DNA of 64,000 nt from an uncultured Acidobacteriota bacterium (GTDB lineage Bacteria > Acidobacteriota > Thermoanaerobaculia > Multivoradales > UBA5704), in the NCBI GenBank assembly GCA_963700145.1, contig OY969474.1, positions 1,952,001 to 2,016,000 on the forward strand, read 5' to 3'. Both the position numbers and the translations under genes were made by a program. Shown piece after piece: positions 10,746-51,077 of the stretch. The notes beneath the pieces were generated by a model. That model saw only the letters and a program-made list of their open reading frames with translations, searched no databases and had not been told where the DNA came from. Every line of letters starts with the position of its first letter. Positions within the stretch are counted from its first letter, which is position 1.

Positions 10746-11450
10746 ATGGACCCCAACCTCGTCCTCCTCGGCCTGACCTGGTTCGTGGTCTTCCTCTTCT
10801 CGACCACACTGCACGAGGCCGGGCACGCGCTGGCCGCCAAGAAGCTCGGCGACCCCACCGCCTACCACGGCGGGCAAGTCTCCCTCTCGCCGTTCCCGCA
10901 CATCAAGCGCGAGCCGTTCGGCATGGTGCTGGTGCCGCTGCTCTCCTTCGTCCTGTCGCGCGGCGGCTGGATGATGGGCTGGGCGAGCGCCCCCTACGAC
11001 CCCATGTGGGCGCACCGGCACCCGCGGCGCGCGGCGCTCATGGCGCTGGCCGGCCCGGCGGCGAACCTGCTGCTGGTGATCGTGGCCGGGGGGCTGATCC
11101 GGCTGGGGGTGGCGACCGGGGCCTACCGGGTGCCGGAGTTCGTGACCTTCACGGCCGTGACCCAGCCGGCGGCGGAGGGGCTGGCGGCGGCCGCGGTGCT
11201 GCCGCTCTCGATCTTCTTCACCCTCAACCTCGTCCTCTTCGTCTTCAACCTGCTCCCCCTACCCCCCCTCGACGGCAGCGCCGCCATCGCCATCCTGATG
11301 CCCGACGAGATGGCCCGTCGCTACCAGGAGTTCCTCCACAACCCCAGCTTCTCCTTCCTCGGCATCCTCATCGCCTGGCGCCTCTTCAACCCGGTCTTCG
11401 ACCCGGTGCACACGGTGGCGCTGCGGCTGCTATACCTGGGCGCGTTATAG
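10746..11450 (+). CDS. Site-2 protease family (M50) membrane metalloprotease
   Basis: HEAGH, LAGPAAN and FNLLPLPPLDG motifs. Confidence 0.92.
   Translation: MDPNLVLLGLTWFVVFLFSTTLHEAGHALAAKKLGDPTAYHGGQVSLSPFPHIKREPFGMVLVPLLSFVLSRGGWMMGWASAPYDPMWAHRHPRRAALMALAGPAANLLLVIVAGGLIRLGVATGAYRVPEFVTFTAVTQPAAEGLAAAAVLPLSIFFTLNLVLFVFNLLPLPPLDGSAAIAILMPDEMARRYQEFLHNPSFSFLGILIAWRLFNPVFDPVHTVALRLLYLGAL
11337..11379 (+). repeat. Left copy of an imperfect ~43-bp direct repeat (inside the M50 gene); right copy at 14659-14700
   Basis: CACAACC...CTTCTCCTTCCTCGGCATCCTCATCGCCTGGC vs CACAACC...CTTCTCCTTCCTCGGTACCCTTATCGCCTAGC (28/32 identical in the 3' block). Confidence 0.75.
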
Positions 11451-11465
11451 GGCGCTGCGCTACCT

Positions 11466-11505
11466 CTGCCGGTGACGCACCGTGCAGACGGTTCACTCGG
11501 GGCAG
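11466..11505 (+). other. 40-nt imperfect hairpin upstream of the RT (candidate ncRNA element or terminator)
   Basis: CTGCC/GGCAG, GGTGA/TCACT and ACCGT/ACGGT nested stems closing a GCAG loop. Confidence 0.5.
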
Positions 11506-11557
11506 CATCCAACATTGAAGGTCAAACCTAGAGACTCTAAACAAGGAAGCACTTAGC

Positions 11558-13183
11558 ATGGACGGAATCACGCCAGACATTGTTGCACGCCTCGATCTTG
11601 CGGCAGCGATGCAACAGGCTTGCGTTCCAAATGATCTACTGCCTTCGCGAGAGGAGGATCGCGTGGGCGGAGAACTCGGCAAGCGCTATGCGGAACACCT
11701 CCGCAAGCAGTTAGAGGAGGGGCGTTACGAACCCGACCCCGCCTCCTTTGTGCCAGTTCCCAAGCCAGGCTTCACATCCCGCCCCGCCGCACTCCTTACG
11801 CTGACCGATCGAGTGCTTTACGAGGCGCTCGTATCCCTTCTTCGCCCTCGTCTCGCGAAGGTCCTTTTGGATCCTGAGGTCGTTCTATGGCCTCGTGAAA
11901 CGTATGTGGAGAAGCGCTGGGCAGAGTTCGAAGGCGCCCCTCTCACCGTTTCTACTGCCTACGTCGTGCAAGCTGACGTAGCTGGTTTCTACGAGACGAT
12001 CAGTCACGACCAGCTTGAGGATGATCTCGTGCAATTGACTGGCGAGAGGCAGGTCGCCAAAGCCATTAGCGCGTTCCTTTCTCGCGTCATGAACTCTCCA
12101 CGCGGCCTTCCCCAGGGCCTCCTCCCATCGGACACACTCGCCACCACATATCTGCAACCTCTCGACGCTGCCCTCTTGCGACAAGGCTTCCACCACTGGA
12201 GGCACGGTGACGACATCCGCGTGGCCGCTGATACCATCCCCGATGCACGGGAAAGCATCGCGTTGATCGAGCACGAACTGCGAAACCGCGGACTCCTAGT
12301 GAGTGGCTCCAAGTGCGCCATTATCACTCGCGAGAACTACGAGGCAAGTCTGTTGGCTAGCGACGCTGCGCTTAGCGCAGCGCGCGAGAGCCTTCTGGCA
12401 GCAAGGATTGAGGAGGTCGCCAGTGATGATGAGGAGTTAATCTCTGCCATGGAGAAGGCGCAGCTCGACGAGGATGTGAGCTGGGCTCTGTTCTACCATA
12501 TGTCTATTTCGATCGACGAAGTGATCGACATGCTCCGAGAACATCTGCAGCCCACCGACATCGAGGTCGCACAAGAGGTCTTCTTGGAAACTGTCCGGCA
12601 TGGCCCCGGAAGTCAAGATCCGTTGCCGAAAGAGCAGTTTCATGCGCAAATCACCCGCTCGCTATTGCGCTTAGCCGCGGCCAGGTCTCCTGTTGGCCTG
12701 CGGAAGGCGGCATGGTTGACGGAAACATTTCCCGAGAAGACAGGGCTAGTATGCACCTACCTTCAAGCGATGATGCGATCACACTCGCTTCAGGCTGTGC
12801 GCCAAGCGGAGAAGGTATTGCTCTCTGCGGCGTTCACTACGGCGTGGCAGCAAGCGTGGCTTCTCAGGGTGTTAGGTCTCGGTTCGGAACGTATCGCACC
12901 TGCCACGGTCGAGCGCTTGGAGGCGATAGCCAACGACGAAGCTGCTCACTGGCTTGCCCGAGTAGAAGCAATGAAAGTGCTGGCTCGCCTTAACCGACTC
13001 GATCGTGACACCGTGCTTCGAAGCTGGAGACTAGCACCACGGCCATATAGGAGTGATCTGTTGGAAGCGACCGCCTTTCTGCGGGACTCGGAAGAATGGG
13101 CACGAAGGTTCCTCAAGGGAACGCAGCTGGATCCTGTCGAGAAGGTGGTCGTGAGTCACTTGACGAGCCAAGCGCGCACCTAA
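11558..13183 (+). CDS. Reverse transcriptase with C-terminal alpha-helical (HEAT-like) region; Abi/DRT/UG-type
   Basis: VPKPG..RP, ADVAGFYETISH, GLPQG, RHGDD in the YxDD position, GSK; helical C-terminus (WQQAWLL); lower GC than flanks. Confidence 0.88.
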   Translation: MDGITPDIVARLDLAAAMQQACVPNDLLPSREEDRVGGELGKRYAEHLRKQLEEGRYEPDPASFVPVPKPGFTSRPAALLTLTDRVLYEALVSLLRPRLAKVLLDPEVVLWPRETYVEKRWAEFEGAPLTVSTAYVVQADVAGFYETISHDQLEDDLVQLTGERQVAKAISAFLSRVMNSPRGLPQGLLPSDTLATTYLQPLDAALLRQGFHHWRHGDDIRVAADTIPDARESIALIEHELRNRGLLVSGSKCAIITRENYEASLLASDAALSAARESLLAARIEEVASDDEELISAMEKAQLDEDVSWALFYHMSISIDEVIDMLREHLQPTDIEVAQEVFLETVRHGPGSQDPLPKEQFHAQITRSLLRLAAARSPVGLRKAAWLTETFPEKTGLVCTYLQAMMRSHSLQAVRQAEKVLLSAAFTTAWQQAWLLRVLGLGSERIAPATVERLEAIANDEAAHWLARVEAMKVLARLNRLDRDTVLRSWRLAPRPYRSDLLEATAFLRDSEEWARRFLKGTQLDPVEKVVVSHLTSQART

Positions 13184-13188
13184 AAAGG

Positions 13189-14647
13189 GGGGTTGTCCCT
13201 CCCGCTGTTGAAAGAGCAATGAGGTGAAGGCGGCTCCTCGGCCCACCTGATCGAGAATCGGGTTGGTCGAATAACCGGCCCCGCCAGGGGGCCAAGGAGC
13301 CGTGATGAAGACGAGAGCAGAAAGGCGGGTGGTGTGGCAAGGGGGCCGTGCGGCGCGCATCAGCCACGGGCTACAAGCGCTGCTGCGGCCGATGGTCGAG
13401 GGCATCGAGGCCAGCCGCCAGGGGCTGCTGGAGCTGTTTCACGCCGCGGGCGTCGAGGCCCTGGGGCGGCAGCTCGCGGACGAGGTCGAGGCCGTCGTCG
13501 GTCCGAAGCGTCGGCGCAATCCGACCCGCGAGGCGTACCGCTGGGGCTCGACGGCGAGCGAGTTCGTGCTGGGTGGCCGCCAGGTGGCGCTGCCGCGACC
13601 GCGCGTCCGGCGACGCGACGGTGGCGAGATGAGCTTGCCTTCGGTGCGCGCCTTTCAGGACGAAGATCCCTTCACGGAGCGGGTGATCGAGCAGGCGCTG
13701 GTCGGCGTCTCGCAGCGCCGCTACGGTCGGAGCTTGGAGCCGCTCGCAGAGTCGGTGCCGGAGCGCGCGACGAGCAAGAGTGCGGTCCAGCGCCGGCTGG
13801 TGGCGGGGACGCGTCGTCTGCTGGGCGCGTGGCTGCGCCGAGACCTGTCGGACTTCCAGCCCCTGATCCTGATGATCGACGGGCTGGAGGTGGCCGGCCA
13901 CACCCTGGTGGTGGCACTCGGCATCGCGCGCGACGGGACCAAGCGGGTGCTCGGCCTGCGTGAAGGCGCGACGGAGAACGCGGCGCTCTGTACCGGCCTG
14001 CTCCAGGAGCTGTTGGAGCGAGGCCTCGCGATGCCGCCGCGCTTCTTGGCGGTGCTCGACGGCGGCAAGGGGCTGCGCAAGGCCGTGCGCGCCGTCTTCG
14101 GGGACGCAACCCACGTCCAGCGCTGCCAGCTCCACAAGCGCCGCAACGTCCGCGACCACCTGCCCAAGCAGCTCCAAGCCCGGGTCGACCGCCTGATGGT
14201 CGAGGCCTACCAGAGCGCTCGCTTCGACCTCGCCAAGCGTCGCCTCGAGCAGCTTGCCCGCTGGCTCGAGCACGCAGGCCACGCGGGCGCCGCGGGCAGC
14301 CTGCGCGAGGGCCTCGACGAGACCCTCACCGCCTTGCGGCTGAAGCTGCCCGACGCTCTGCGCCGGTTGCTCGCCTCGACCAACGCGATCGAGAACACGA
14401 TCGGCTCGATCCGTACGACGACGCGCAACGTCAAGCGCTGGCGCGGCGGCGACATGGTGCTGCGCTGGGTCGCCCTGGCGCTGTGTGACGCGGAGGCTGG
14501 CTTCCGGCGTGTCAAGGGACATCGGCACCTCGGGGCTCTCGAGCTCGCGCTCGCGGCGATCGAGGAACCGACGAACACCAAGGCCGTGGCATGATCAACC
14601 GAGCCGCTTTCCCTCTTTCGGCTTTCAACAGGGAACGGGGCATCCCC
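13189..14647 (+). mobile_element. Complete IS256-family insertion sequence
   Basis: Imperfect TIRs GGGGTTGTCCCTCCCGCTGTTGAAAG / rc GGGGATGCCCCGTTCCCTGTTGAAAG; 9-bp target duplication CTAAAAAGG at 13180-13188 and 14648-14656. Confidence 0.92.
13302..14594 (+). CDS. IS256 family (Mutator-type) DDE transposase
   Basis: MIDG, LDGGKG, QRCQLHK and STNAIE motifs. Confidence 0.95.
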   Translation: MMKTRAERRVVWQGGRAARISHGLQALLRPMVEGIEASRQGLLELFHAAGVEALGRQLADEVEAVVGPKRRRNPTREAYRWGSTASEFVLGGRQVALPRPRVRRRDGGEMSLPSVRAFQDEDPFTERVIEQALVGVSQRRYGRSLEPLAESVPERATSKSAVQRRLVAGTRRLLGAWLRRDLSDFQPLILMIDGLEVAGHTLVVALGIARDGTKRVLGLREGATENAALCTGLLQELLERGLAMPPRFLAVLDGGKGLRKAVRAVFGDATHVQRCQLHKRRNVRDHLPKQLQARVDRLMVEAYQSARFDLAKRRLEQLARWLEHAGHAGAAGSLREGLDETLTALRLKLPDALRRLLASTNAIENTIGSIRTTTRNVKRWRGGDMVLRWVALALCDAEAGFRRVKGHRHLGALELALAAIEEPTNTKAVA

Positions 14648-14658
14648 CTAAAAAGGTT

Positions 14659-14700
14659 CACAACCAGACTTCTCCTTCCTCGGTACCCTTATCGCCTAGC
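14659..14700 (+). repeat. Right, degenerate copy of the M50 gene segment 11337-11379
   Basis: Exact 15-mer CTTCTCCTTCCTCGG shared; the TGG codon is TAG here. Confidence 0.75.
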
Positions 14701-14748
14701 CCGGTAAGGCTTCCGGAACGCGCCGAAGGCTTGGCCAAGTGGGGGCGT

Positions 14749-15330
14749 TCAGCGGACGAAGTAGCGGTAGTGCCCGGTGACCTCGTAGGCGAAGAGGATG
14801 TCCTCGAGCCGCGTGCCGGCGCCGATGTTGTGGACGACGAGGCGGCGGTCGGTGCGCGCGACGGGGCGGTCGGAGGTGATGCCGACGTGGGGCACTCCCG
14901 AGGGCAGGCGCCAGGTGACGACGTCGCCCGGTAGATAGTCGGCGCCGCGGCTTGTGACCGGCACGGCCTTGCCGCCGCGGCGGAAGAAGGTGGCCAGGTT
15001 CGGCACGCGGCGGTGGTCGATGTTGGGATCGGGGCGGCGCAGGCCCCAAAGACGGGGGTAGGCGTCGAAGTGGGCCTTCATGTCCTCGTGCACGAGCACC
15101 TGCAGGTCGGTGCCGGCGCGGCGGAAGGCGCGGACGACGACGTCGGTGCAGACGCCGGTCGCGAGCGGCACGTCGCCGCCCGGGTAGGCGATACGGCGGT
15201 AGCTCGGGTCGTAGCCGGGGGTCCTCCCCACCTGCTCCACCGCCCCCGCGACCAGCGCGGCGACACCGGCCTCCTGCGCCAAGGCGGGGGCCAGCGCGAC
15301 GACGACCAGGAAGGCGAAGGCGCGCCTCAC
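14749..15330 (-). CDS. DUF1287 (YijF-like) exported protein
   Basis: YDPSY..IAYPGGDVP..GVCTDVVVRA, DPNIDHRRVPNL, HNIGAG; signal peptide. Confidence 0.9.
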   Translation of the reverse strand: MRRAFAFLVVVALAPALAQEAGVAALVAGAVEQVGRTPGYDPSYRRIAYPGGDVPLATGVCTDVVVRAFRRAGTDLQVLVHEDMKAHFDAYPRLWGLRRPDPNIDHRRVPNLATFFRRGGKAVPVTSRGADYLPGDVVTWRLPSGVPHVGITSDRPVARTDRRLVVHNIGAGTRLEDILFAYEVTGHYRYFVR

Positions 15331-15339
15331 AGGGGTTGA

Positions 15340-15531
15340 TCAGGAGGACCGGGGAGCCTCTCCGATAGGGGGCTGCGAGGCCTGGATCTCCGCCAGGTCG
15401 TCGGCAAAGCGAGGGTCCGGCGCGCCGAGCTGCCGCAGCCGCTCGACCAGCTCGCGAAGGGTGACGCGGCGGCTCGGCGACGCAGGCGAGAATCGTCTTG
15501 TGGCCTCGGTCGCGGTGACTCTTTTGTCCAT
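15340..15531 (-). pseudogene. Internally deleted Phd/YefM-type antitoxin (vapB-like remnant)
   Basis: MDKRVTATEATRRFS start joined directly to TLRELVERL..PDPRFADDL; central Phd region missing; no intact toxin downstream. Confidence 0.55.
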
Positions 15532-15538
15532 CACCACG

Positions 15539-15559
15539 ACGGTACTCTGAAGAATCAGA
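15539..15559 (-). promoter_or_regulatory. Leaderless-type -10 (TACCGT, 7 nt before ATG) with adjacent operator-like palindrome TCTGA-N4-TCAGA
   Basis: Seen directly upstream of the antitoxin remnant. Confidence 0.4.
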
Positions 15560-15613
15560 TTGCCGCAAGGCGCGGGACCGCCCTCCGGGCTGCGCCGGGG
15601 GGCCTCCGGCGCC

Positions 15614-15885
15614 GCCGGAAGCTTCCCCCTCGCCGCCGGAAGCTTCCCCCTCGCCTCCGGAGGCTTCCGCACCTGCTCCGGAAGCTTCCGCCCCGCCTCC
15701 GGAAGCTTCCCGTTCACCTCCGGAAGCTTCCGCTTCGCCTCCGGAAGCTTCCGCTCCTCCTCAGGAAGCTTCCCGGCCACGTCCGGAAGCTTCCCGCCCG
15801 CCTCCGGAGGCTTCCGCACCACCTCCGGAAGCTTCCGCCCCGCCCTGGGAAGCTTCCGCTCCTCCTCCGGAGGCTTCCGGAGGGG
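15614..15885. repeat. Tandem array of 13 x 21-bp units with palindromic core GGAAGCTTCC
   Basis: Units such as tccggaagcttccgccccgcc and tccggaagcttcccgttcacc at exact 21-bp period. Confidence 0.95.
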
Positions 15886-17583
<1,698 letters not shown>

Positions 17584-44468: not shown

Positions 44469-45542
44469 CTATCCGTTCTTGCTCGGCCTAAATTGGCGAT
44501 GGTCGCACTCAGTGGCGAGGTGCGGCCACACAGGAGGAATCGCTACCTTCGATGCAGCCGTGGAGGTAATCACATTGTACTGGAATTCTTCGAGATCTTT
44601 CTCACACGAACCGGGAGATACTCCTTCCTCACGATACTCCTTGAACACACGGCGAGCAGCCCCAGAACTTCTGTCACTGAGGAGTTCGAAGAAGGCCTCT
44701 GAGTGGCGCTTAAGCATGGCACTGTAGCAGTTCGACGATGGTTGGGGGTTGTTTGGATTTTCCCAATGACCAACTAGAAGGGTTACCGTGCTGCTTCCGT
44801 GAGTGGGCCGCAGCGCCGCCGCCGCCTTTTGCGTTTCGCGGCCGAAGTCGAACGACTTGATTTCCACTTCGTCACCTTCGACGATCAATTCCACTACGAT
44901 CGCATCGGCCGCAGCCTGCGTGTAGTTTGGCACCAAGGTTCCGTCTGGCAACTTGAAGTTGAACGTAGCTATCCGATCTCGATCACCAGCCAGGTCAATC
45001 GTGTCGTGCAAAAGATGGCAAGTGCTGGCGCGGCCCCCCGTGATCTTGAAACGAGCACTGATCGGACAGGTCTTCGCCTCCGCAAGGCAATCCTCATTGA
45101 TCGCACCCTTCCCTGAGGTTAAGACATCCATCTCCGGTATCCAAGAGAAGTCGGAAGTCTGAATGACATCGCTTGGAAACTCTGCTGGCTTACCCTGCAC
45201 CTGAACTCTAGTCTTACGCTCCAAGGCAAAACCAGGCAGTGCTCCGTCGATTTCGAGGTGCTCTCCGTCGAGCCACCAACGAAGCTTATATCTAGCGCCC
45301 ATTTGCTCCAAAGGGCCCGGCAACCCAACTCCCGCCGCACGAACGCGCTCGGCCGCAGGTTCACGAAGACAGTTTCCGTAACATTCTCCCTCCAAAAGCC
45401 AGACCCGGGGGGCATGATCCGGAATGTGGCACTGACCCTCGTGCACTGTAGACGCCTTGATCAAAAGCGCCGTCATCCCCTTTTCGACCTGCTCATTTGG
45501 AACGAAGCCGATCAGTCCCCAAAAGATCACGCGAACGATCAT
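44469..45542 (-). CDS. Hypothetical Cys-rich protein coupled to the CHAT protease gene
   Basis: 357-aa ORF in a lower-GC region; ATGA overlap and AAGGAGG RBS at the end of the CHAT gene. Confidence 0.75.
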   Translation of the reverse strand: MIVRVIFWGLIGFVPNEQVEKGMTALLIKASTVHEGQCHIPDHAPRVWLLEGECYGNCLREPAAERVRAAGVGLPGPLEQMGARYKLRWWLDGEHLEIDGALPGFALERKTRVQVQGKPAEFPSDVIQTSDFSWIPEMDVLTSGKGAINEDCLAEAKTCPISARFKITGGRASTCHLLHDTIDLAGDRDRIATFNFKLPDGTLVPNYTQAAADAIVVELIVEGDEVEIKSFDFGRETQKAAAALRPTHGSSTVTLLVGHWENPNNPQPSSNCYSAMLKRHSEAFFELLSDRSSGAARRVFKEYREEGVSPGSCEKDLEEFQYNVITSTAASKVAIPPVWPHLATECDHRQFRPSKNG

Positions 45543-48500
45543 ATCGCCTCCTTCTTCGGTTGTGTTATCTGTGGAACTACAGCCGTATAAACCTGAAAAG
45601 CAGCCCAGTCCAGCGAACGTCGAGCGCTCTGAGGCTGCCTTTGAAGGAATTCAACCTGAGCGTGTCTAAGTGCGATGACTGGAGGAGCACCGGCGGTCAG
45701 GCGTTCATGGAATCGTTCAAGCAGGCGACGAGTACTCTGATCCTCTATGTTCCAGAGACTGGCGATCACTGTAGGCACGCCGCGCGCAAGAAGCGGCCAC
45801 ACTATCCCTCCAATCCCCTCACCGGCAGCTACTGCTCCTTCGGCGGAGCCGCAACTCGCCAGGATGACTAGCTCGGTGCCAAGTACAACGGGGCCAAGCA
45901 GTTCCCTCGAGTAGAGAACTCCCGTCCCGCTATCCCGATCCGGCGCTAAAAGCAGCATAGACTGAAGAGGCGTCCTCTTGTTGAGAACCGCATGGCCACT
46001 AAAATGAAGAATGCGATACTTGCCCAGCGCTCCCCGAAATGCGCCCCGGGTAGCATTTCGACAACACACAACACTGGGACGCCGATAGAGTCGCCCTATG
46101 CGAGTACCTTCTTCCAATGCTCCTTGCAGATCGTGGGCATCTGCGAACAGTGAACGTCGAAAGGCCGGGTTGGCTATCACGAGAATCGAACCATCCGCGA
46201 AGCCCTCGCGGGCAACGTGCTGCCCCGGCCGGACCAAGACATTGAGACTTGGCGCGACGGCAAATGGTCTCTCTTCGATCAGCGTCCGACCGGTCTGTGA
46301 ATTTACCAATGCAGCGAGCGGGAGAGAATAGAGGCTGCCATCAAGAACAAATGTGACAACCTCATCTTTCTGAAGAAGTCTGTTGAGCGGACGTATTAGT
46401 ATGTCATAGAGCCGAATGGCTTCAGGCCGAACGGCTAGTTCGTCTCTCCGAGCTAGTTTGTTGAGCCGATCAATCTGCCTCTCTAAAAGAGACGCCGTAA
46501 CCGGAATTCTTACCAACTGGACTGATGTCGATCGAACTACCCAAAGAAGCAATGTATCTCCAAGGATCTTGTAGCTAACAAGCACAAAGGGCTTATTTAG
46601 CCGCGACTGCAGGGCAGCCACGGGCCTCGGCTGAGTTGAAATATCAATCGCAAAATGGTCAAAATCATTGCCTCTGGGTAAGGCGGACAGCCAATCAAGG
46701 AGCACGCGCGCCCGGGCCCGCTCCGAGTAGTCGAAAGCAAGATCATTATCTCCTCTCTTCACCTGCAGGGCAATCATATCGTCAAACGCCGAAGCAGAGC
46801 GGCTAGAGAAAGCGAGCCTGTAACTCCCTTGTGGCAAGGAGTTACGCTCTCGTTCCAGGAGATCGATAGCCCGAGCAAGGTCCTTCACCGCGGCCGCTTC
46901 CTCATTGAGATGAAGAAACGCCTGGGCTCGCAAGCGTAGCGCGTGTGGAAGCCTGAGGTCATGCCTTCGGTACTCATGAAACCTGAGAGCGGCGCTCAGG
47001 GATGCAATTGCTCCAGCCGGGTCACGAGTCCTCCGCACCTCTCCGTCCGCCAGGAGCAAATCGGCGACCACATTCTCACGCACTGACTGATCCGCGATGG
47101 CGGAACTACGATGCCGAGCGTGCTCGAGGTCATTAAGGGCCGAACGGTACCTGCCAGCTTCAAAAAGAATTAGGCCTCGATTCAAAAGAGCCGTGGTTAG
47201 AGCAAGCGGCTCATTCGTCTTTCGAGCAAGATGTAGCGCCTCCGTTTGAATGATGACCGCCGCGTCGGTATGACCAGATTCAAGGCTGGCAAAGGCGGCT
47301 TCCGTGAGAGCGAGACGAAGGCGATTAGGATTAATAGGCTTAGCCAAAGCCTGAATAGCACGAAGGCGATGGCGCCAGGCAGCAGGAGAATCGCCGAGTT
47401 CGTGAAGGGCGCTGGCTAGAAGGATGTGCACCGCACTTTGATGTTCGCTTTCTCCAGTTTGCTGGAAGAGTGCCAAGGCAGATTGATAAGCGCGCAGCGC
47501 CTCAGCAGGGCGGGCAAGCCCTAGAAGTGCGCTGCCCAAAAGCCATTGTGACCGCCCGGCAAGAATGGGATAGCGTGATTCGTCGATATCCTTGAGAAGC
47601 GCCTTGGTCAGTCTGTAAGCGTTCGGTAGGTCCGAACGTTGGTACGCGCAGCGGGCGAGAAGGAACTCGATCCAAAGCCTGCATGGCATGCTTGGTCGGC
47701 TGCAATACGAGCGCGCGCGCGCCAATGAACTCTCAGCTTCCGAGAACTGACGTGCCTTAACGAGGGAAAGCCCTTTGCCATAATTATCGATGCCAAACAC
47801 CAGTAGTCTAAACTCCGAGCTACCCTCTTCAAGTTGATCGATAAACGCAATCATGTCGGCGACTGATCGATCACCAGAAGTCTCCACTACCTTTTCGCTG
47901 ATGACGCGGGCCGAACTGAGAGCTCTGGCCGCGGCTAATCGGTGCTCGTCCAACCAGAGGTGAGCCCATGCTAGCAAAAGACCTTCCTCCGCATATTCAC
48001 GGCTTTCCTGTCGAAAGGCATTAACTATTGAGTAAATGGCTTGTCCGTCATTGAGACGTATCGCAGCTTGGAGTCGCTGTTTTTCTTGATCCCACATCTC
48101 AGCACTCGAAAGGGATGAGCCGCCTTGCAGTGAAGCCGTAGCTTCTCTAGCCCAACCTGAGCTCCCATCGAGCTCCAAATAGCGCTGTAAAGCCTCCGCA
48201 GCCTGCGAGGGAAGAAAGAGCTTTCGACATGCCAGCGCGCGGTTAAAGAGGGCTTCCGGGCTACTGGAATCGAGGCGAGTCGCCTTTTCTGCGGCCGAAA
48301 GCGCTCCTACTAGGTTGATGGGCCGGTCGAGAGCCTCAGCGCTCGCGATGTAGGCTGCCGCAAGATCAGAGAGGATTGCGGCATTCTGGGGAACGCGTCG
48401 ACTCGCCTGTTCCAAAATAGGAACGGCCTTCTCAGGGCGGTTTGTGACGAGATATAGGAGGCCCTTTGCCTGCAGAGCTTCTGGAGTAGCTCGAAGAGAC

Positions 48501-48775
48501 GCTTCTTTATAGATCTCGCGAGCTGCCTTACGTACGGCCTGATTACCGGGGAGCGCAGAACGGCCCGAACGCAGAAATAGTCCCTGAAAGGTGGGCGCAT
48601 ACGAAAAGCCGCCTGTCAAGCGCGACTCAACCGGCCGCTCCCCACCCGCTGCTGCAACGAGAGCCCTATGGCCAGCGCCTCCGGGAGCCGTAGCAAGTAC
48701 TTTGTTTCGGGGTGGCACTAATCCACAGGCGCAGACTGCGAGACTCAGCAGCAGGGCCGAATAGCGCAATACCAT
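45539..48775 (-). CDS. TPR-CHAT (caspase-like) protease with N-terminal signal/lipoprotein-like peptide
   Basis: Long TPR region; ILHFSGHA (His) and LASCGS (Cys) dyad; IASLWNIED, ALRHAQ, WAAF. Confidence 0.92.
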   Translation of the reverse strand: MVLRYSALLLSLAVCACGLVPPRNKVLATAPGGAGHRALVAAAGGERPVESRLTGGFSYAPTFQGLFLRSGRSALPGNQAVRKAAREIYKEASLRATPEALQAKGLLYLVTNRPEKAVPILEQASRRVPQNAAILSDLAAAYIASAEALDRPINLVGALSAAEKATRLDSSSPEALFNRALACRKLFLPSQAAEALQRYLELDGSSGWAREATASLQGGSSLSSAEMWDQEKQRLQAAIRLNDGQAIYSIVNAFRQESREYAEEGLLLAWAHLWLDEHRLAAARALSSARVISEKVVETSGDRSVADMIAFIDQLEEGSSEFRLLVFGIDNYGKGLSLVKARQFSEAESSLARARSYCSRPSMPCRLWIEFLLARCAYQRSDLPNAYRLTKALLKDIDESRYPILAGRSQWLLGSALLGLARPAEALRAYQSALALFQQTGESEHQSAVHILLASALHELGDSPAAWRHRLRAIQALAKPINPNRLRLALTEAAFASLESGHTDAAVIIQTEALHLARKTNEPLALTTALLNRGLILFEAGRYRSALNDLEHARHRSSAIADQSVRENVVADLLLADGEVRRTRDPAGAIASLSAALRFHEYRRHDLRLPHALRLRAQAFLHLNEEAAAVKDLARAIDLLERERNSLPQGSYRLAFSSRSASAFDDMIALQVKRGDNDLAFDYSERARARVLLDWLSALPRGNDFDHFAIDISTQPRPVAALQSRLNKPFVLVSYKILGDTLLLWVVRSTSVQLVRIPVTASLLERQIDRLNKLARRDELAVRPEAIRLYDILIRPLNRLLQKDEVVTFVLDGSLYSLPLAALVNSQTGRTLIEERPFAVAPSLNVLVRPGQHVAREGFADGSILVIANPAFRRSLFADAHDLQGALEEGTRIGRLYRRPSVVCCRNATRGAFRGALGKYRILHFSGHAVLNKRTPLQSMLLLAPDRDSGTGVLYSRELLGPVVLGTELVILASCGSAEGAVAAGEGIGGIVWPLLARGVPTVIASLWNIEDQSTRRLLERFHERLTAGAPPVIALRHAQVEFLQRQPQSARRSLDWAAFQVYTAVVPQITQPKKEAI

Positions 48776-48856
48776 ATCGTTCGCTACCCTTCTCCCCGCG
48801 AAGCCCGGTTCTCAAGATTCAACGCATTCACTGCCGCTCCTCCCGAGACACCTAAA

Positions 48857-49930
48857 TCATTCGTTTGCAACCTGCACTATCATCGAGCTAGAAACAGAGT
48901 TTCCGCCATGATCCCAGACGGTGACTATGACCTCGTGTGGGCCACTTCGCGATTCTAGGGTATTCCAGGCTCTGTCCCTATCGCTCTGCGTGAGCACCCG
49001 CGAGCCGTCCATGTTTGTCGCAATAATGTAAAACTTGCGCTCGGTATAACTCCCCTCAGACCGCGCGCTCGCGTCATCCTTATAGAGAGTATGCACCGCG
49101 AAAGGATCCGAACCTAGTTCACCATCAAGCACCACTATGGAACGGTAAACTTCTTGGTTGTCCTCGCTTCGTCGTACTATTACATCAATCTTGTAGGGAG
49201 CTACGTGCAAGTTCCCGGCAATGGTGTCATGGGCGAGCGCAACGATGTCTAGCCTGCCCCTCAAACTCAAAGGTGGCTGACAAGTAGCAGTTTCATTTTC
49301 ACAAAAGAGCAAAAGGTCGGTGCCTGTAGCCAATTCAAAGCTGGGGTCCGAGGTGTCCGCGTTAGGGCTTAAGTATAAGATGGGATTATCGATAGGGAAT
49401 GCTCTACTCCATCTCTTTCCCCCAAATCCTCTAACCCTGCTAAGATGAAGATGGTCGAAATTTGGCTCTGGCCAAGCTACAATCTTGCCGAGGTACGCTC
49501 CCTTTTGTACCGACTCTTCAATCGTCACGGCGATGCTGCTCCCCTCCAAGTGACAATAGACGTAACCCTCGCCACCATCAACTGGCTCCCCTATCATGAC
49601 ACATGAAAAATACTCAGACTGTGTATTGACGTATGTGACAGTGCCGTCTTCGACCGCATAAACCTCTCGAGGAGCACCCGCCAGAATATCGATGCCGTTA
49701 TGATGGTAGGGCCTGCCTTCTGGGTTCTGGTACTCACCGTAGCTATTGCCGATGGGATAGACAACATCGCCAGGGTCGAAAGGCCATCTAATTGCGGACT
49801 GTGCATTAAGAGGTGCGAGCCCCGGTTGCACGATGCTTAAAATGACGACCACTCGAGCCAGCAGTGCGCAACTGTCTGTCCATGACCCAATTCTATTGCG
49901 GAATGGCAAGGACATAGGGCTCACCATCAA
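48857..49930 (-). CDS. Exported M23 family metallopeptidase domain protein
   Basis: HHNGIDI, VYAVEDGTV, YCHL and HLH motifs. Confidence 0.8.
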   Translation of the reverse strand: MMVSPMSLPFRNRIGSWTDSCALLARVVVILSIVQPGLAPLNAQSAIRWPFDPGDVVYPIGNSYGEYQNPEGRPYHHNGIDILAGAPREVYAVEDGTVTYVNTQSEYFSCVMIGEPVDGGEGYVYCHLEGSSIAVTIEESVQKGAYLGKIVAWPEPNFDHLHLSRVRGFGGKRWSRAFPIDNPILYLSPNADTSDPSFELATGTDLLLFCENETATCQPPLSLRGRLDIVALAHDTIAGNLHVAPYKIDVIVRRSEDNQEVYRSIVVLDGELGSDPFAVHTLYKDDASARSEGSYTERKFYIIATNMDGSRVLTQSDRDRAWNTLESRSGPHEVIVTVWDHGGNSVSSSMIVQVANE

Positions 49931-51008
49931 GAGTCATGAAGAGTTTGGTGTTATCAACAAATTCCACGGTTGGCGTCGTCCCCTTCCATTCTTGGAAGTC
50001 CACAATTTCACGCTCTTGAAGAGTGCCCAGAAGATCGAGAATCACTATCTCAGCCTGGGCACGGCCCATCCCTGTTGACGTACGTCGTGTACTTATGGCG
50101 AGCGTGCTTACGGCGATGCGTTTTGCATCTGGCCGGAAATCGACATCTTCAAAATAGGCATTGGGCTTGGCTCGTACGCGCGATATCATTTCCCCTGTCG
50201 TGGTTCGTAGGACATACAAGTTCTCAGGGTCAATGATGACAAGGAGTGTACCGTCGTTGGAAAAGTCTACATCCGACGCAATTTTCGCGGTCGGAATGAT
50301 TACAGGCGATGGCAATGTGTCGTTGACGACAGTGACCTCTTCGGGTCGGATCAGAGCGATCGAGCGCCCGTCTGGCGATAGGCCGAAATCGAGTGCGGAC
50401 TTAAAGCGCTGGCGAACCTCAGCCGTACGGTCAAGCACTACGAGTTCGTCTTGAGTATTAACGGCGATCCGGGTTCCATCATGGTTGAGGTCCACCTTTT
50501 GAATGCCGACCTGCGATCTTGAACCTAAGACCTCGCCTTCTTTGCCATAGATCGTTAGTCGCCCTGCCGTCGGCAAGTGAATATCGCGAAGGGTTTCAAC
50601 CACCGTTGAGCCATCGTCGCTAATAGAGAAATCGGAGAACCCAGGTACGGTGACGTTCCACACAGGAAGCCAGTTCTGTAGGAACTCAAAGGTAGATATT
50701 CGCTTGCCCTCAAGAGTTTGGTAGCTCACGCGCCCTAACTGAGTTCGGTCCCGAGAAACTATTAGGCGCTGATTGCGGTCGAGTGAAATCGCGCTGGCGA
50801 TGGCGCTGTAGACCGGTGCTTTTTGATCCTTAGACAAATGAAGGTAGACATGGCCATCGCGAAACTCGATGGCAGCAACGTTGGGAGAATCCTCGTCAGG
50901 GAAGACCTTTTCCAGAGCCGGAGATCCGAGGCAGAGGTTGGGGAGTAGCACGGCGGACGCTGCTACGCCGGCTGATGCCCTAATGATGAAAGAAGCCAGC
51001 CGCCACAT
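49893..51008 (-). CDS. Exported WD40-like beta-propeller protein
   Basis: Repeats ISDDGS, LNHDGTRIAV, LSPDGRSIAL, FSNDGTLL, FRPDAKRIAV; signal peptide. Confidence 0.7.
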   Translation of the reverse strand: MWRLASFIIRASAGVAASAVLLPNLCLGSPALEKVFPDEDSPNVAAIEFRDGHVYLHLSKDQKAPVYSAIASAISLDRNQRLIVSRDRTQLGRVSYQTLEGKRISTFEFLQNWLPVWNVTVPGFSDFSISDDGSTVVETLRDIHLPTAGRLTIYGKEGEVLGSRSQVGIQKVDLNHDGTRIAVNTQDELVVLDRTAEVRQRFKSALDFGLSPDGRSIALIRPEEVTVVNDTLPSPVIIPTAKIASDVDFSNDGTLLVIIDPENLYVLRTTTGEMISRVRAKPNAYFEDVDFRPDAKRIAVSTLAISTRRTSTGMGRAQAEIVILDLLGTLQEREIVDFQEWKGTTPTVEFVDNTKLFMTLDGEPYVLAIPQ

Positions 51009-51077
51009 GGAGGGGCGGTGCTCGTGCCCCTTCTGAGTCACGCTATGATGCCCATAAGGTCAGCCCCGCGGTCTGCC

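What the first reader, a model, noticed from the sequence alone, without database searches (positions are those of the whole stretch)
11558..13183. Solo Abi/DRT-like reverse transcriptase with a non-canonical HGDD active site
Seen: complete RT palm motifs (ADVAGFYETISH, GLPQG, RHGDD), with His-Gly replacing the usual Y/F-x of YxDD. A ~280-aa helical C-terminus follows; there is no maturase/endonuclease domain, no retron VTG motif, no cas1 and no partner gene. GC is lower than the host. Established: RT plus helical-repeat proteins (AbiK, Abi-P2, several DRT/UG groups) are anti-phage polymerases, some template-independent and protein-primed. Inference: a possibly uncharacterised single-gene defence RT whose altered motif could change substrate or template use.
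Basis: partly seen in the sequence, partly recalled or inferred. Interest (0 to 1): 0.75.

Follow-up and report, generated by a model that had tools for sequence, protein, structure and literature searches.

The report
Solo UG22 defence-type reverse transcriptase
This is an intact, recently imported single-gene reverse transcriptase of the named but untested UG22 group, whose unusual His-Gly-Asp-Asp active-site motif is a conserved trait of its branch rather than damage.

Summary
ORF 11558-13183 (+) encodes a 541-aa protein with the stated palm motifs, a helical C-terminal half and no partner gene.

It is not an unclassified type. It matches PADLOC's RT_UG22 model end to end (375 bits), a Class 1 UG/Abi group named by Mestre et al. 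2022 and never characterised.

RHGDD is not private decay. In a tree of 180 relatives, a 142-leaf clade (support 0.98) has xGDD in every member (H 130, N 4, Y 4, R 3, K 1). Outgroups within UG22 keep Y/F-[ASV]-DD.

The gene lies in a 1.83-kb low-GC cassette (GC3 0.63 versus 0.95-0.97 in neighbours). A same-genus genome has an empty site there, and 0 of 40 relatives carry UG22. An IS256-family element later landed on the RT stop codon.

The model (pLDDT 95.7) matches DRT6, DRT4 and AbiK over the whole chain. No ncRNA and no conserved neighbour was found.

The most likely mechanism, inferred and not shown, is an oligomeric, protein-primed, template-independent DNA polymerase for phage defence.

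By contrast, the canonical-YADD sister clade carries a conserved upstream gene resembling a Tse2-type ADP-ribosyltransferase toxin.

Verdict: a new member of a known, uncharacterised kind, of moderate interest.

The parts
11451..14748 (.). Whole 3298-bp insertion relative to a same-genus genome: the RT cassette plus an IS element
   Evidence: In G004 (L035) the M50 stop (= window 11450) and the DUF1287 stop (= window 14749) lie 12 bp apart.
11451..11557 (+). Upstream non-coding leader, with the AAGGAAG ribosome-binding site at 11543-11549
   Evidence: Sequence read. It gives no Rfam hit, its fold has z -1.08, and it holds no sigma-70-like site.
11558..13183 (+). UG22 (Class 1 UG/Abi) reverse transcriptase gene, 541 aa, intact
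   Evidence: Supported.
11630..11671 (+). N-terminal family signature at residues 25-38 (NDLLPxRxxD..G). D26, R31 and D34 are invariant.
   Evidence: Seen in alignment A1. A related DLLPPR block is conserved in the sister clade.
11690..12328 (+). Fingers and palm, residues about 45-257. This is the part that aligns with group II intron RTs.
   Evidence: GsI-IIC RT 6ar1 matches at E 2.8e-23 over query residues 45-257. Pfam RVT_1 covers 67-257.
11972..12007 (+). Motif A, ADVAGFYETISH (residues 139-150). D140, F144 and Y145 are invariant.
12104..12118 (+). Motif B, GLPQG (residues 183-187)
12200..12214 (+). Motif C, RHGDD (residues 215-219). R, G, D and D are invariant, and H is present in 137 of 154 core relatives.
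12329..13180 (+). C-terminal alpha-solenoid, residues 258-541. It carries the conserved Tyr261, Tyr313 and Tyr401.
   Evidence: The AF2 secondary structure is helical throughout. Whole-chain fold matches go to DRT6, DRT4 and AbiK.
13181..13188 (.). Left copy of the 8-bp target-site duplication TAAAAAGG, which contains the RT's TAA stop codon
13189..14648 (+). IS256-family insertion sequence, with its transposase ORF at 13302-14594. It is not part of the RT system.
   Evidence: Pfam Transposase_mut. There are 21 copies at 100% identity in the genome. The terminal inverted repeats are 13188-13229 and 14607-14648.
14649..14656 (.). Right copy of the target-site duplication TAAAAAGG
14657..14748 (+). 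Right-hand tail of the RT cassette. It contains a degenerate 42-43-bp copy (14659-14700) of M50 gene positions 11337-11379.
   Evidence: Its fold has z +0.83.

Best explanation
The gene is an intact, horizontally acquired, stand-alone member of the UG22 group of Class 1 UG/Abi reverse transcriptases, in the subclade whose motif C is R-H-G-D-D. This much is shown: family membership, a complete catalytic core, the RT plus alpha-solenoid architecture shared with DRT6, DRT4 and AbiK, the absence of any partner gene or cis ncRNA, and recent insertion as a 1.83-kb cassette. The following is inferred from the behaviour of every Class 1 member studied so far. The protein assembles into an oligomer. 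It primes DNA synthesis on one of its own conserved tyrosines (candidates Tyr401, Tyr261, Tyr313). It then makes protein-linked single-stranded DNA from dNTPs without a nucleic-acid template. Phage infection changes the amount or fate of that DNA and leads to abortive infection. His216 sits where DRT4's Tyr238 stacks on the 3' end of the product, and Gly217 opens space beside it. The HG pair therefore most plausibly tunes product or nucleotide handling rather than abolishing catalysis.
For: PADLOC RT_UG22 matches at 375.2 bits, E 1.4e-112, over residues 5-533 against model positions 2-474 of 476. The next best is UG21 at 183 bits.

The catalytic and dNTP-binding residues D140, D218, D219, R75, K252 and F144/Y145 are invariant in 94 aligned relatives of 33-64% identity.

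The AF2 model has pLDDT 95.7 and pTM 0.91, with an all-helical C-terminal half. Foldseek whole-chain matches are hexameric DRT6 9wy8 (TM 0.61/0.66), DRT4 9vdo (0.58/0.63), UG15 9l9s (0.55/0.55), AbiK 7r06 (0.53/0.48) and Abi-P2 7r08 (0.48/0.52).

Class 1 systems studied so far perform nucleic-acid-template-independent, often protein-primed synthesis (PMC13174585 passages; PMC9508834 passages; PMC12783706 abstract and sections 8-9).

No cis RNA was found. Rfam gives 0 hits over 11300-14800, the flank folds have z -1.08 and +0.83, and no conserved non-coding block flanks the gene in 21 loci plus the window.

No partner was found.

PADLOC matches at E<=1e-10 lie within 4 kb of the RT in 12 of 22 homologous loci. 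These include complete Thoeris (L005) and SIR2-HerA (L014) systems directly downstream.

Distribution is patchy: 0 of 40 relatives carry UG22 at E<=1e-40, a same-genus genome has an empty site, and GC3 is 0.63 against 0.95-0.97 in neighbours.

The homodimer prediction for residues 1-500 scored 0.66, with the best of 3 controls at 0.00. That mark was reached by 20 of 30 proteins solved as pairs of one chain and 1 of 23 solved as single chains. The runs agree in at least 95% of contacts and the partner's pLDDT is at least 84. My own alignment was used, so the counts hold only roughly. Like complexes are solved (DRT4, DRT6 and AbiK hexamers), so the pass may come from memory.
Against: No UG22 member has been tested, and Mestre et al. 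call the defence prediction for UG22 'inconclusive'.

In this genome the cassette sits between housekeeping-type genes (EF-P, M50 protease, DUF1287), not in a defence island.

The count of defence neighbours has no background control, and one hit (the ClpB-like ORF in L019) is probably housekeeping.

The fingers and palm are much closer in sequence to templated group II intron RTs (E 2.8e-23) than to UG15 (1.3e-8), Abi-P2 (8.6e-8) or AbiK (1.9e-3). Template use is therefore not excluded.

The position equivalent by spacing to DRT4's priming Tyr125 is Tyr in only 47 of 143 clade members, so the priming residue, if there is one, is unknown.

The predicted dimer interface includes residues next to the active site (69, 142-147, 247-255). 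Its biological meaning is unclear.
Confidence: 0.6

Rival explanations
1. The protein is a templated reverse transcriptase. It copies an RNA supplied in trans (a host or phage transcript, or an unlinked ncRNA) and the cDNA mediates defence, as in Class 2 DRTs.
For: The fingers and palm retain strong similarity to group II intron RTs over residues 45-257 (E 2.8e-23), including the region preceding motif A. The top Foldseek hit is the G2L4 RT 9d4s, E 6e-11.
Against: There is no conserved flanking non-coding block, no Rfam hit and no structured flank. The cassette has only 107 and about 92 nt of non-coding DNA. The whole-chain architecture matches untemplated Class 1 enzymes better (TM 0.58-0.66) than G2L4 or GsI-IIC (TMq 0.38-0.40). 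Class 1 members studied so far are untemplated.
Confidence: 0.2
2. The gene is a passenger with no role in this host. On this view it is a recently transferred, selfish or neutral cassette, possibly silenced by the IS element that landed on its stop codon.
For: Acquisition is very recent: GC3 is 0.63 and 0 of 40 relatives carry it. No sigma-70-like promoter was found in the 107-nt leader. The IS removed whatever lay immediately 3' of the stop codon. In 4 of 21 homologous loci the RT frame is interrupted (L004, L007, L021, L026).
Against: The ORF is intact and carries all 27 residues that are invariant in the family. The IS leaves the stop codon in place because TAA lies inside the duplicated target. 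The family is under clear purifying selection across at least six phyla. The promoter scan covers only the sigma-70 consensus.
Confidence: 0.12
3. The polymerase is catalytically disabled. On this view His-Gly in place of Tyr-x kills polymerisation, and the protein acts only as a scaffold or nucleic-acid binder.
For: The Tyr of YxDD stacks on the product's 3' end in DRT4 (Tyr238; PMC12783706 section 8). Losing it could impair primer positioning.
Against: Both aspartates, the motif A aspartate, R75, K252 and the F144/Y145 pair are invariant in 94 sequences. xGDD is kept in 142 of 142 clade leaves, which fits selection on an active site. From general knowledge and no call: -GDD is the normal motif C of active viral RNA polymerases.
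Confidence: 0.05

Closest known systems
UG22 group of Class 1 UG/Abi reverse transcriptases (Mestre et al. 2022, NAR; PADLOC model PDLC03760)
   Same: It gives a full-length best match to the family model (375 bits). The architecture is an RT plus a C-terminal alpha-repeat domain. Like the rest of the group, it is experimentally uncharacterised.
   Different: The paper predicts an associated HEPN-like neighbour ('cluster 79'). None is present here or in the 28 related loci. This protein belongs to a subclade with xGDD in place of the Y/F-x-DD kept by other UG22 branches.
DRT4 (UG15) and DRT6 (UG12), single-gene Class 1 defence RTs (PDB 9vdo, 9l9s, 9wy8)
   Same: These are the best whole-chain fold matches (TM 0.55-0.66). 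They are single-gene systems of similar size, with an RT plus a helical lobe. A homo-oligomer is predicted here too.
   Different: Sequence similarity is only remote (UG15 E 1.3e-8 over residues 179-292). DRT4 has a canonical Y238-x-D240-D241 and primes on Tyr125. Here the Tyr is His216, and the position equivalent by spacing (116) is not conserved. This genome's own DRT6-like RT (L030) shows 'RYVDE' at motif C.
AbiK and Abi-P2 (protein-primed, template-independent Abi polymerases; PDB 7r06, 7r08)
   Same: They share the two-lobed RT plus alpha-solenoid fold (TM 0.48-0.53) and the single-gene abortive-infection logic (PMC9508834, passages).
   Different: Sequence relation is very weak (AbiK E 1.9e-3). 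AbiK's priming Tyr44 lies in an N-terminal loop, whereas the conserved N-terminal block here (residues 25-38) holds no conserved hydroxyl residue.
DRT8 (UG7) and UG21, UG23, UG19, UG20, UG32 (neighbouring Class 1 groups)
   Same: These are the next-best PADLOC models and align over most of the length (UG21 183 bits, Drt8 115 bits over residues 13-536).
   Different: Their scores are two to three times lower than UG22's, so the protein is not a member of these groups.
Group II intron reverse transcriptases (e.g. GsI-IIC RT, PDB 6ar1)
   Same: These are the closest solved sequences for fingers and palm (E 2.8e-23, residues 45-257), and motif C aligns column for column (RhGDD on RYADD).
   Different: There is no maturase/X or endonuclease domain. 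NCBIfam group_II_RT_mat scores 78 bits against a cut-off of 300. No intron RNA was found (Rfam 0 hits). The C-terminal half is an alpha-solenoid.

Membership tests
UG22 (PADLOC RT_UG22, PDLC03760) | A full-length best match to the family profile, clearly above sister groups | tested here: met
   The match is 375.2 bits, E 1.4e-112, residues 5-533 on model positions 2-474 of 476. The next best is UG21 at 183 bits.
UG22 (Mestre et al. 2022) | The predicted association with a HEPN-like neighbour ('cluster 79') | tested here: not met
   The insertion contains only the RT and an IS. No neighbour is shared across the 28 related loci. No HEPN family appeared among the 52 neighbours scanned with Pfam. 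This is a predicted association and not a definition. The paper's neighbour tables were not among the supplements held.
Class 1 UG/Abi reverse transcriptases | An RT domain fused to a C-terminal alpha-helical repeat (alphaRep/HEAT-like) domain | tested here: met
   The AF2 model is helical from residue 258 to 540 at pLDDT 95.7. Whole-chain fold matches go to DRT6, DRT4, AbiK and Abi-P2. The definition comes from PMC9226505 and PMC13174585 passages.
Class 1 UG/Abi reverse transcriptases | Template-independent, protein-primed DNA synthesis | not testable with these tools
   This needs biochemistry. The only indirect support is the absence of a cis ncRNA and the presence of conserved Tyr261, Tyr313 and Tyr401.
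Defence-associated RT (DRT) | Demonstrated protection against phage | not testable with these tools
   No UG22 experiment is in the library searched.
Defence-associated RT (DRT) | Enrichment next to known defence genes | tested here: inconclusive
   12 of 22 homologous loci have a PADLOC match at E<=1e-10 within 4 kb, and 8 of 22 have one of at least 100 bits. No background control was run, and the window's own locus has none.
Group II intron RT/maturase | A family profile score above the cut-off, a maturase domain and an intron RNA | tested here: not met
   TIGR04416 scores 78.4 bits against a cut-off of 300. Pfam finds RVT_1 only. Rfam gives 0 hits.
Retron RT | A retron RT profile match, the VTG motif and an adjacent msr/msd RNA | tested here: not met
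   retron_St85_RT scores 19.4 bits against a cut-off of 235. The protein has no VTG. Rfam gives 0 hits.
DRT4, DRT5, DRT3, DRT2 (NCBIfam equivalogs) | A score above the curated cut-off | tested here: not met
   Drt3a scores 40.3 against 200, Drt5 34.2 against 550, Drt2 20.6 against 390 and Drt4 20.4 against 450.

The most novel reading that the evidence does not exclude
The His-Gly pair marks a functionally distinct branch of Class 1 polymerases. An imidazole at the product-stacking position, with a glycine beside the catalytic aspartates, would give these solo enzymes a defined, protein-dictated product (base-biased, homopolymeric or repeat DNA) or an altered nucleotide substrate. On this reading the change coincided with loss of the toxin partner still carried by the canonical-YADD sister clade, so that the RT product itself became the effector.
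Probability: 0.2. Interest if true: 0.7.

Novelty: new member of a known kind. Interest (0 to 1): 0.45.

Why it matters
UG22 is one of the 16 UG/Abi groups whose defence role Mestre et al. left 'inconclusive', and nothing has been published on it since in the library searched.

This locus is a clean test object. It is a 1.83-kb single-gene cassette with known insertion boundaries, no ncRNA and no partner.

Three observations here go beyond the published classification. First, xGDD (mostly HGDD) is fixed in a 142-leaf clade while the rest of UG22 keeps YxDD. Second, that clade is solo. Third, its YADD sister clade carries a conserved upstream gene resembling a Tse2-type ADP-ribosyltransferase toxin. 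Together they give a natural comparison for asking how Class 1 RTs couple DNA synthesis to an effector, and what the residue at the Tyr position of YxDD does in an untemplated polymerase.

The interest is moderate. The kind is known, the mechanism is inferred by analogy, and nothing here contradicts current models.

Tried and rejected
Private decay of motif C was rejected, because H216 is conserved in 137 of 154 core relatives and G217 in 154 of 154.

A conserved partner gene in the HGDD clade was not found. BLAST clustering and phmmer clustering of flanking ORFs gave no family shared beyond close relatives. The one 4-locus cluster consists of antisense ORFs overlapping the RT's own 5' end.

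A HEPN neighbour was not seen among the 52 neighbours scanned with Pfam. One locus, L006, has a DUF5677 gene downstream.

A Tse2-like partner for the window's RT was ruled out. A profile built from the sister-clade gene hit only the 8 sister-clade loci among 10746 translated frames of all loci and the window. PF18648 found nothing in the genome.

The search for a cis ncRNA was negative. A sigma-70 promoter or terminator in the cassette flanks was not found, although that scan covers only one promoter type.

Phage or plasmid carriage was not supported. There was no match in phage records and there were only 2 partial plasmid matches, covering 41-47% of the query at about 34% identity.

Expression could not be assessed, because no RNA holder was listed among 4 runs.

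BLASTP against this genome's DRT6-like RT gave no significant alignment (best E 0.84).

The literature search for 'HGDD' with 'reverse transcriptase' found 2 papers, both irrelevant.

The earlier-notes look-ups by place and by sequence returned nothing.

The supplements of PMC9226505 held only one file, a tree file that was cut when stored, with 246 occurrences of 'UG22' and no 'HEPN' or 'cluster 79'. The make-up of the reported neighbour cluster could therefore not be checked.
Full report
OBSERVATION. An AAGGAAG ribosome-binding site lies 8 nt upstream at 11543-11549. ADVAGFYETISH begins at residue 139, GLPQG at 183 and RHGDD at 215, and there is no VTG. Pfam sees only RVT_1, at residues 67-257. 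A profile of 94 relatives aligned to solved group II intron RTs places 'RhGDD' exactly on 'RYADD'. His and Gly therefore really do occupy the Y and x positions of YxDD. The AlphaFold2 model built from that alignment is very confident (mean pLDDT 95.7, pTM 0.91) and is purely helical from residue 258 to 540. The gene has GC 0.584 and GC3 0.631, against GC3 0.95-0.97 in the flanking genes.

WHAT FAMILY IT IS. PADLOC's RT_UG22 model matches from end to end (375.2 bits, E 1.4e-112, residues 5-533 on model positions 2-474 of 476). The next models are UG21 (183 bits), UG23, UG32, UG19 and Drt8/UG7 (115 bits). No NCBIfam equivalog (group II RT/maturase, Drt2-5, retron) comes near its cut-off. UG22 is a group of the Class 1 UG/Abi RTs defined by Mestre et al. 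2022 (PMC9226505; I read passages only). Class 1 means an RT fused to a C-terminal alpha-repeat domain. For UG22 the paper predicts an associated HEPN-like neighbour ('cluster 79') and calls the defence prediction 'inconclusive'. A full-text search for 'UG22' with 'reverse transcriptase' found 4 papers, of which only that one is relevant. A search for DRT11-DRT14 showed DRT11 in a paper on UG5 (search listing only) and no higher numbers. UG22 is thus named but uncharacterised in the library searched.

IS HGDD DECAY OR A TRAIT? The word-indexed search gave 104 relatives of 26-66% identity in the best local alignment. In 94 near-full-length ones, R215, G217, D218 and D219 are invariant and H216 is kept in at least 90%. 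Also invariant are D140, F144, Y145, R75, K252 and the P-Q-G of motif B. The exhaustive profile search found 821 cluster representatives at E<=1e-30 and 17325 at E<=1e-3. I aligned all 246 proteins in hand to the profile. In the core group (at least 380 bits, no N-terminal extension; 154 proteins) motif C is HGDD in 137, NGDD in 7, YGDD in 5, RGDD in 4 and KGDD in 1, so Gly is present in 154 of 154.

I then built a FastTree from 180 of the 246 proteins, keeping those with at least 85% profile coverage and motif C present. The tree is midpoint-rooted and the supports are FastTree's local values. It has a 142-leaf clade (support 0.98) in which every member is xGDD: H 130, N 4, Y 4, R 3 and K 1, with the non-His states scattered as several small nested groups. 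Outside it lie two groups. One is a 31-leaf clade (support 1.0) of 563-640-aa proteins with an N-terminal extension of about 100 aa and mostly canonical Y/F-[ASV]-DD. The other is a small group of about 500-aa proteins with mixed states. All of these subgroups still hit RT_UG22 best (16 of 16 tested). The Gly, and with it mostly the His, is therefore a derived, conserved character of one large UG22 subclade. It is not private decay. The occasional Y, N, R or K shows that the His is preferred but not indispensable. No paper in the library links 'HGDD' to an RT.

GENOMIC SETTING. The genome is one 5.46-Mb contig, and this is its only UG22 gene. UG22 was found in 0 of 40 relatives searched (same genus to same order) at E<=1e-40. 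In a same-genus genome (G004, M50 protease 98% identical) the M50 stop and the convergent DUF1287 stop are 12 bp apart. In the window they are separated by 11451-14748. That 3298-bp insertion holds two things.

One is an IS256-family element at 13189-14648. It encodes a Mutator-family transposase and has 42-nt imperfect terminal inverted repeats. It occurs in 21 copies at 100% identity in the genome, counting this one. It is flanked by an 8-bp duplication, TAAAAAGG, whose left copy contains the RT's TAA stop.

Removing the IS and one duplication copy leaves a 1830-bp cassette. It consists of a 107-nt leader, the RT gene and a 92-nt tail. The RT was therefore already solo before the IS arrived. 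The tail carries a degenerate 42-43-bp copy of M50 positions 11337-11379 (84-86% identity). I cannot explain this copy. It may be a scar of how the cassette integrated.

PARTNERS AND RNAs. Twenty-eight related loci from Gamma- and Betaproteobacteria, Myxococcota, Acidobacteriota, Gemmatimonadota and Actinomycetota share no flanking gene beyond synteny between close relatives. This held with BLAST and with phmmer. No non-coding block next to the gene is conserved. Rfam has no hit in 11300-14800, and neither flank folds better than shuffles (z -1.08 and +0.83).

The neighbours are, however, often defence or mobility genes. Pfam on 52 neighbours showed ThsB-TIR, SIR2_2, AAA_15/AAA_21, Schlafen, zeta toxin, C5 methylase, HNH, an integrase and several transposases. 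PADLOC on 144 approximate gene calls from 22 loci gave matches at E<=1e-10 in 12 loci, and matches of at least 100 bits in 8 loci. These include complete Thoeris (L005) and SIR2-HerA (L014) systems immediately downstream, plus LmuA, HmaA, STAND_TPR, type I and type II R-M components and a GajB-like helicase. For that call I dropped L022-L024, where the RT match is partial, and L017, L027 and L028 had been left out earlier. I ran no background control, and at least one hit (the ClpB-like ORF in L019) is probably housekeeping. I therefore count this as suggestive only. The window's own locus is not a defence island. No full-length relative is present in the phage or plasmid collections.

THE SISTER CLADE DIFFERS. 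To reconcile the published HEPN association with the solo loci, I fetched metagenome loci for the YADD sister clade. Ten loci hold a full-length match, and five of those are near-identical. In all 8 that have upstream sequence, a small gene of about 124-136 aa lies directly upstream on the same strand, abutting or overlapping the RT start. Of 5 copies scanned, 2 reach Pfam's cut-off for ADPRTs_Tse2 (30.7 and 30.2 bits against 26.6), 2 score below it (19.2 and 14.6 bits), and 1 gave no hit; that one was an over-extended ORF call. A profile of this gene finds nothing in the 28 HGDD-clade loci or in the window, and PF18648 finds nothing in the genome. I found no paper combining Tse2, ADP-ribosyltransferase, reverse transcriptase and defence. 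I could not tell whether this gene is what Mestre et al. scored as remotely HEPN-like, because their neighbour tables were not among the supplements held.

HOW IT MOST LIKELY WORKS. These things are shown: a complete polymerase core under purifying selection, and the two-lobed RT plus alpha-solenoid fold. The best whole-chain structural matches are hexameric DRT6 (9wy8, TM 0.61/0.66), DRT4 (9vdo, 0.58/0.63), UG15 (9l9s, 0.55/0.55), AbiK (7r06, 0.53/0.48) and Abi-P2 (7r08, 0.48/0.52).

Established for those relatives: they synthesise protein-linked ssDNA without a nucleic-acid template, primed on a tyrosine. That tyrosine is Tyr44 in AbiK, Tyr125 in DRT4 and Tyr666 in DRT3b. Phage factors such as SSB-like proteins or raised dNTP pools convert this into abortive infection (PMC9508834 passages; PMC13174585 passages; PMC12783706 abstract and sections 8-9; preprint 10.64898/2026.10.27.754916 abstract and section 7).

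Inferred for this protein: the same scheme applies. F144/Y145, five residues after the motif A aspartate, would act as the sugar gate that selects dNTPs (this role is from general RT knowledge and no call). In DRT4 the Tyr of Y238-x-D240-D241 stacks on the 3' nucleotides of the product. His216 occupies that place here, so it should touch the growing end.

Candidate priming residues are Tyr401 (142 of 143), Tyr261 (142 of 143) and Tyr313 (135 of 143), all in the C-terminal half. The position equivalent by spacing to DRT4's Tyr125 is Tyr in only 47 of 143. The 143 were chosen by motif and include one protein from outside the 142-leaf clade.

A two-copy prediction of residues 1-500 passed its controls. 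The score was 0.66, with the best of 3 controls at 0.00. That mark was reached by 20 of 30 proteins solved as pairs of one chain and 1 of 23 solved as single chains. The runs agree in at least 95% of contacts and the partner's pLDDT is at least 84. My own alignment was used, so the counts hold only roughly. Similar complexes are solved, so the pass may reflect memory. The interface is symmetric and uses residues 66-76, 142-147, 180-182, 226-255 and 424-428.

WHAT SPEAKS AGAINST THIS. No UG22 member has been tested. The fingers and palm are far closer in sequence to templated group II intron RTs (E 2.8e-23) than to UG15, Abi-P2 or AbiK (1.3e-8 to 1.9e-3), so use of a template supplied in trans is a live rival. 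The cassette is very recent and sits among housekeeping-type genes. No sigma-70-like promoter was found in its leader. No RNA data exist to show expression. Four of 21 related loci have an interrupted RT frame. These facts keep alive the possibility that the gene is a passenger in this host.

VERDICT. The locus is a new, intact member of a known but uncharacterised kind (UG22, Class 1 UG/Abi). Three points go beyond the published classification. xGDD, mostly HGDD, is a clade character. That clade is solo. Its canonical-motif sister clade carries a Tse2-like toxin gene. I did not test that note.

Noticed in passing
L040, L041, L043-L048 (for example L046:2853-3233, L044:3598-4008, L045:3600-3995, L047:1689-2063): In the canonical-YADD sister clade of UG22 (RTs of about 600-640 aa with an N-terminal extension of about 100 aa), a 124-136-aa gene lies directly upstream of the RT. 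It is on the same strand and abuts or overlaps the RT start, in 8 of 8 loci that have upstream sequence. Two of 5 copies scanned pass Pfam's cut-off for the Tse2-type ADP-ribosyltransferase toxin domain. This looks like a two-gene toxin plus RT system, and I found no paper describing it.
   Followed up: partly
window 13189-14648: An IS256-family element has 21 copies at 100% identity in the 5.46-Mb genome, which points to a recent burst. This copy inserted with its 8-bp target duplication (TAAAAAGG) spanning the RT's stop codon.
   Followed up: yes
window 14659-14700 versus 11337-11379: A degenerate 42-43-bp copy (84-86% identity) of a stretch near the 3' end of the M50 protease gene lies in the tail of the RT cassette. 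It may be a scar of the cassette's integration. It remains unexplained.
   Followed up: partly
L030:1102-2673 (+), own genome G000:C1, about 4.15 Mb: The genome holds a second Class 1 RT of 523 aa. Its best PADLOC match is Drt6 (497 bits), closely followed by Drt4 models (485 bits). A fragment printed by BLASTP shows 'RYVDE' at its motif C.
   Followed up: partly
window 44469-51041 (-): A second low-GC block (GC 0.51-0.60 against about 0.69) holds four co-directional ORFs. They are a 1078-aa TPR-CHAT protein, an M23-peptidase protein and two ORFs of 357 and 382 aa without a significant family. The two ORFs tested with PADLOC (1078 aa and 357 aa) gave no match.
   Followed up: partly
P0168, P0174, P0179, P0181, P0183, P0195, P0205, P0207, P0215, P0226: These are 650-734-aa UG22 proteins inside the xGDD clade, all with HGDD. 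They carry an N-terminal extension of 130-190 aa. In the 4 that were scanned it gives weak, below-cut-off hits to winged-helix families (MarR_2, TrmB, HVO_A0261_N).
   Followed up: partly
L004, L007, L021, L026: In 4 of 21 related loci the RT reading frame hits a stop well before the end of the tblastn match. This could be a frameshift, a pseudogene or an assembly error.
   Followed up: no
window 15340-15822 (-): A 160-aa ORF holds tandem 'G/RKLPE'-type peptide repeats, with internally repeated DNA around 15601-15881 that also varies between this genome and G004. It matches no Pfam family.
   Followed up: no
L036 (G003): In another same-genus genome the M50 protease gene lies about 18 bp from the amidohydrolase gene (window 15902-17000 equivalent). 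The DUF1287 gene and the repeat-protein gene are absent there, so this intergenic spot varies within the genus.
   Followed up: no
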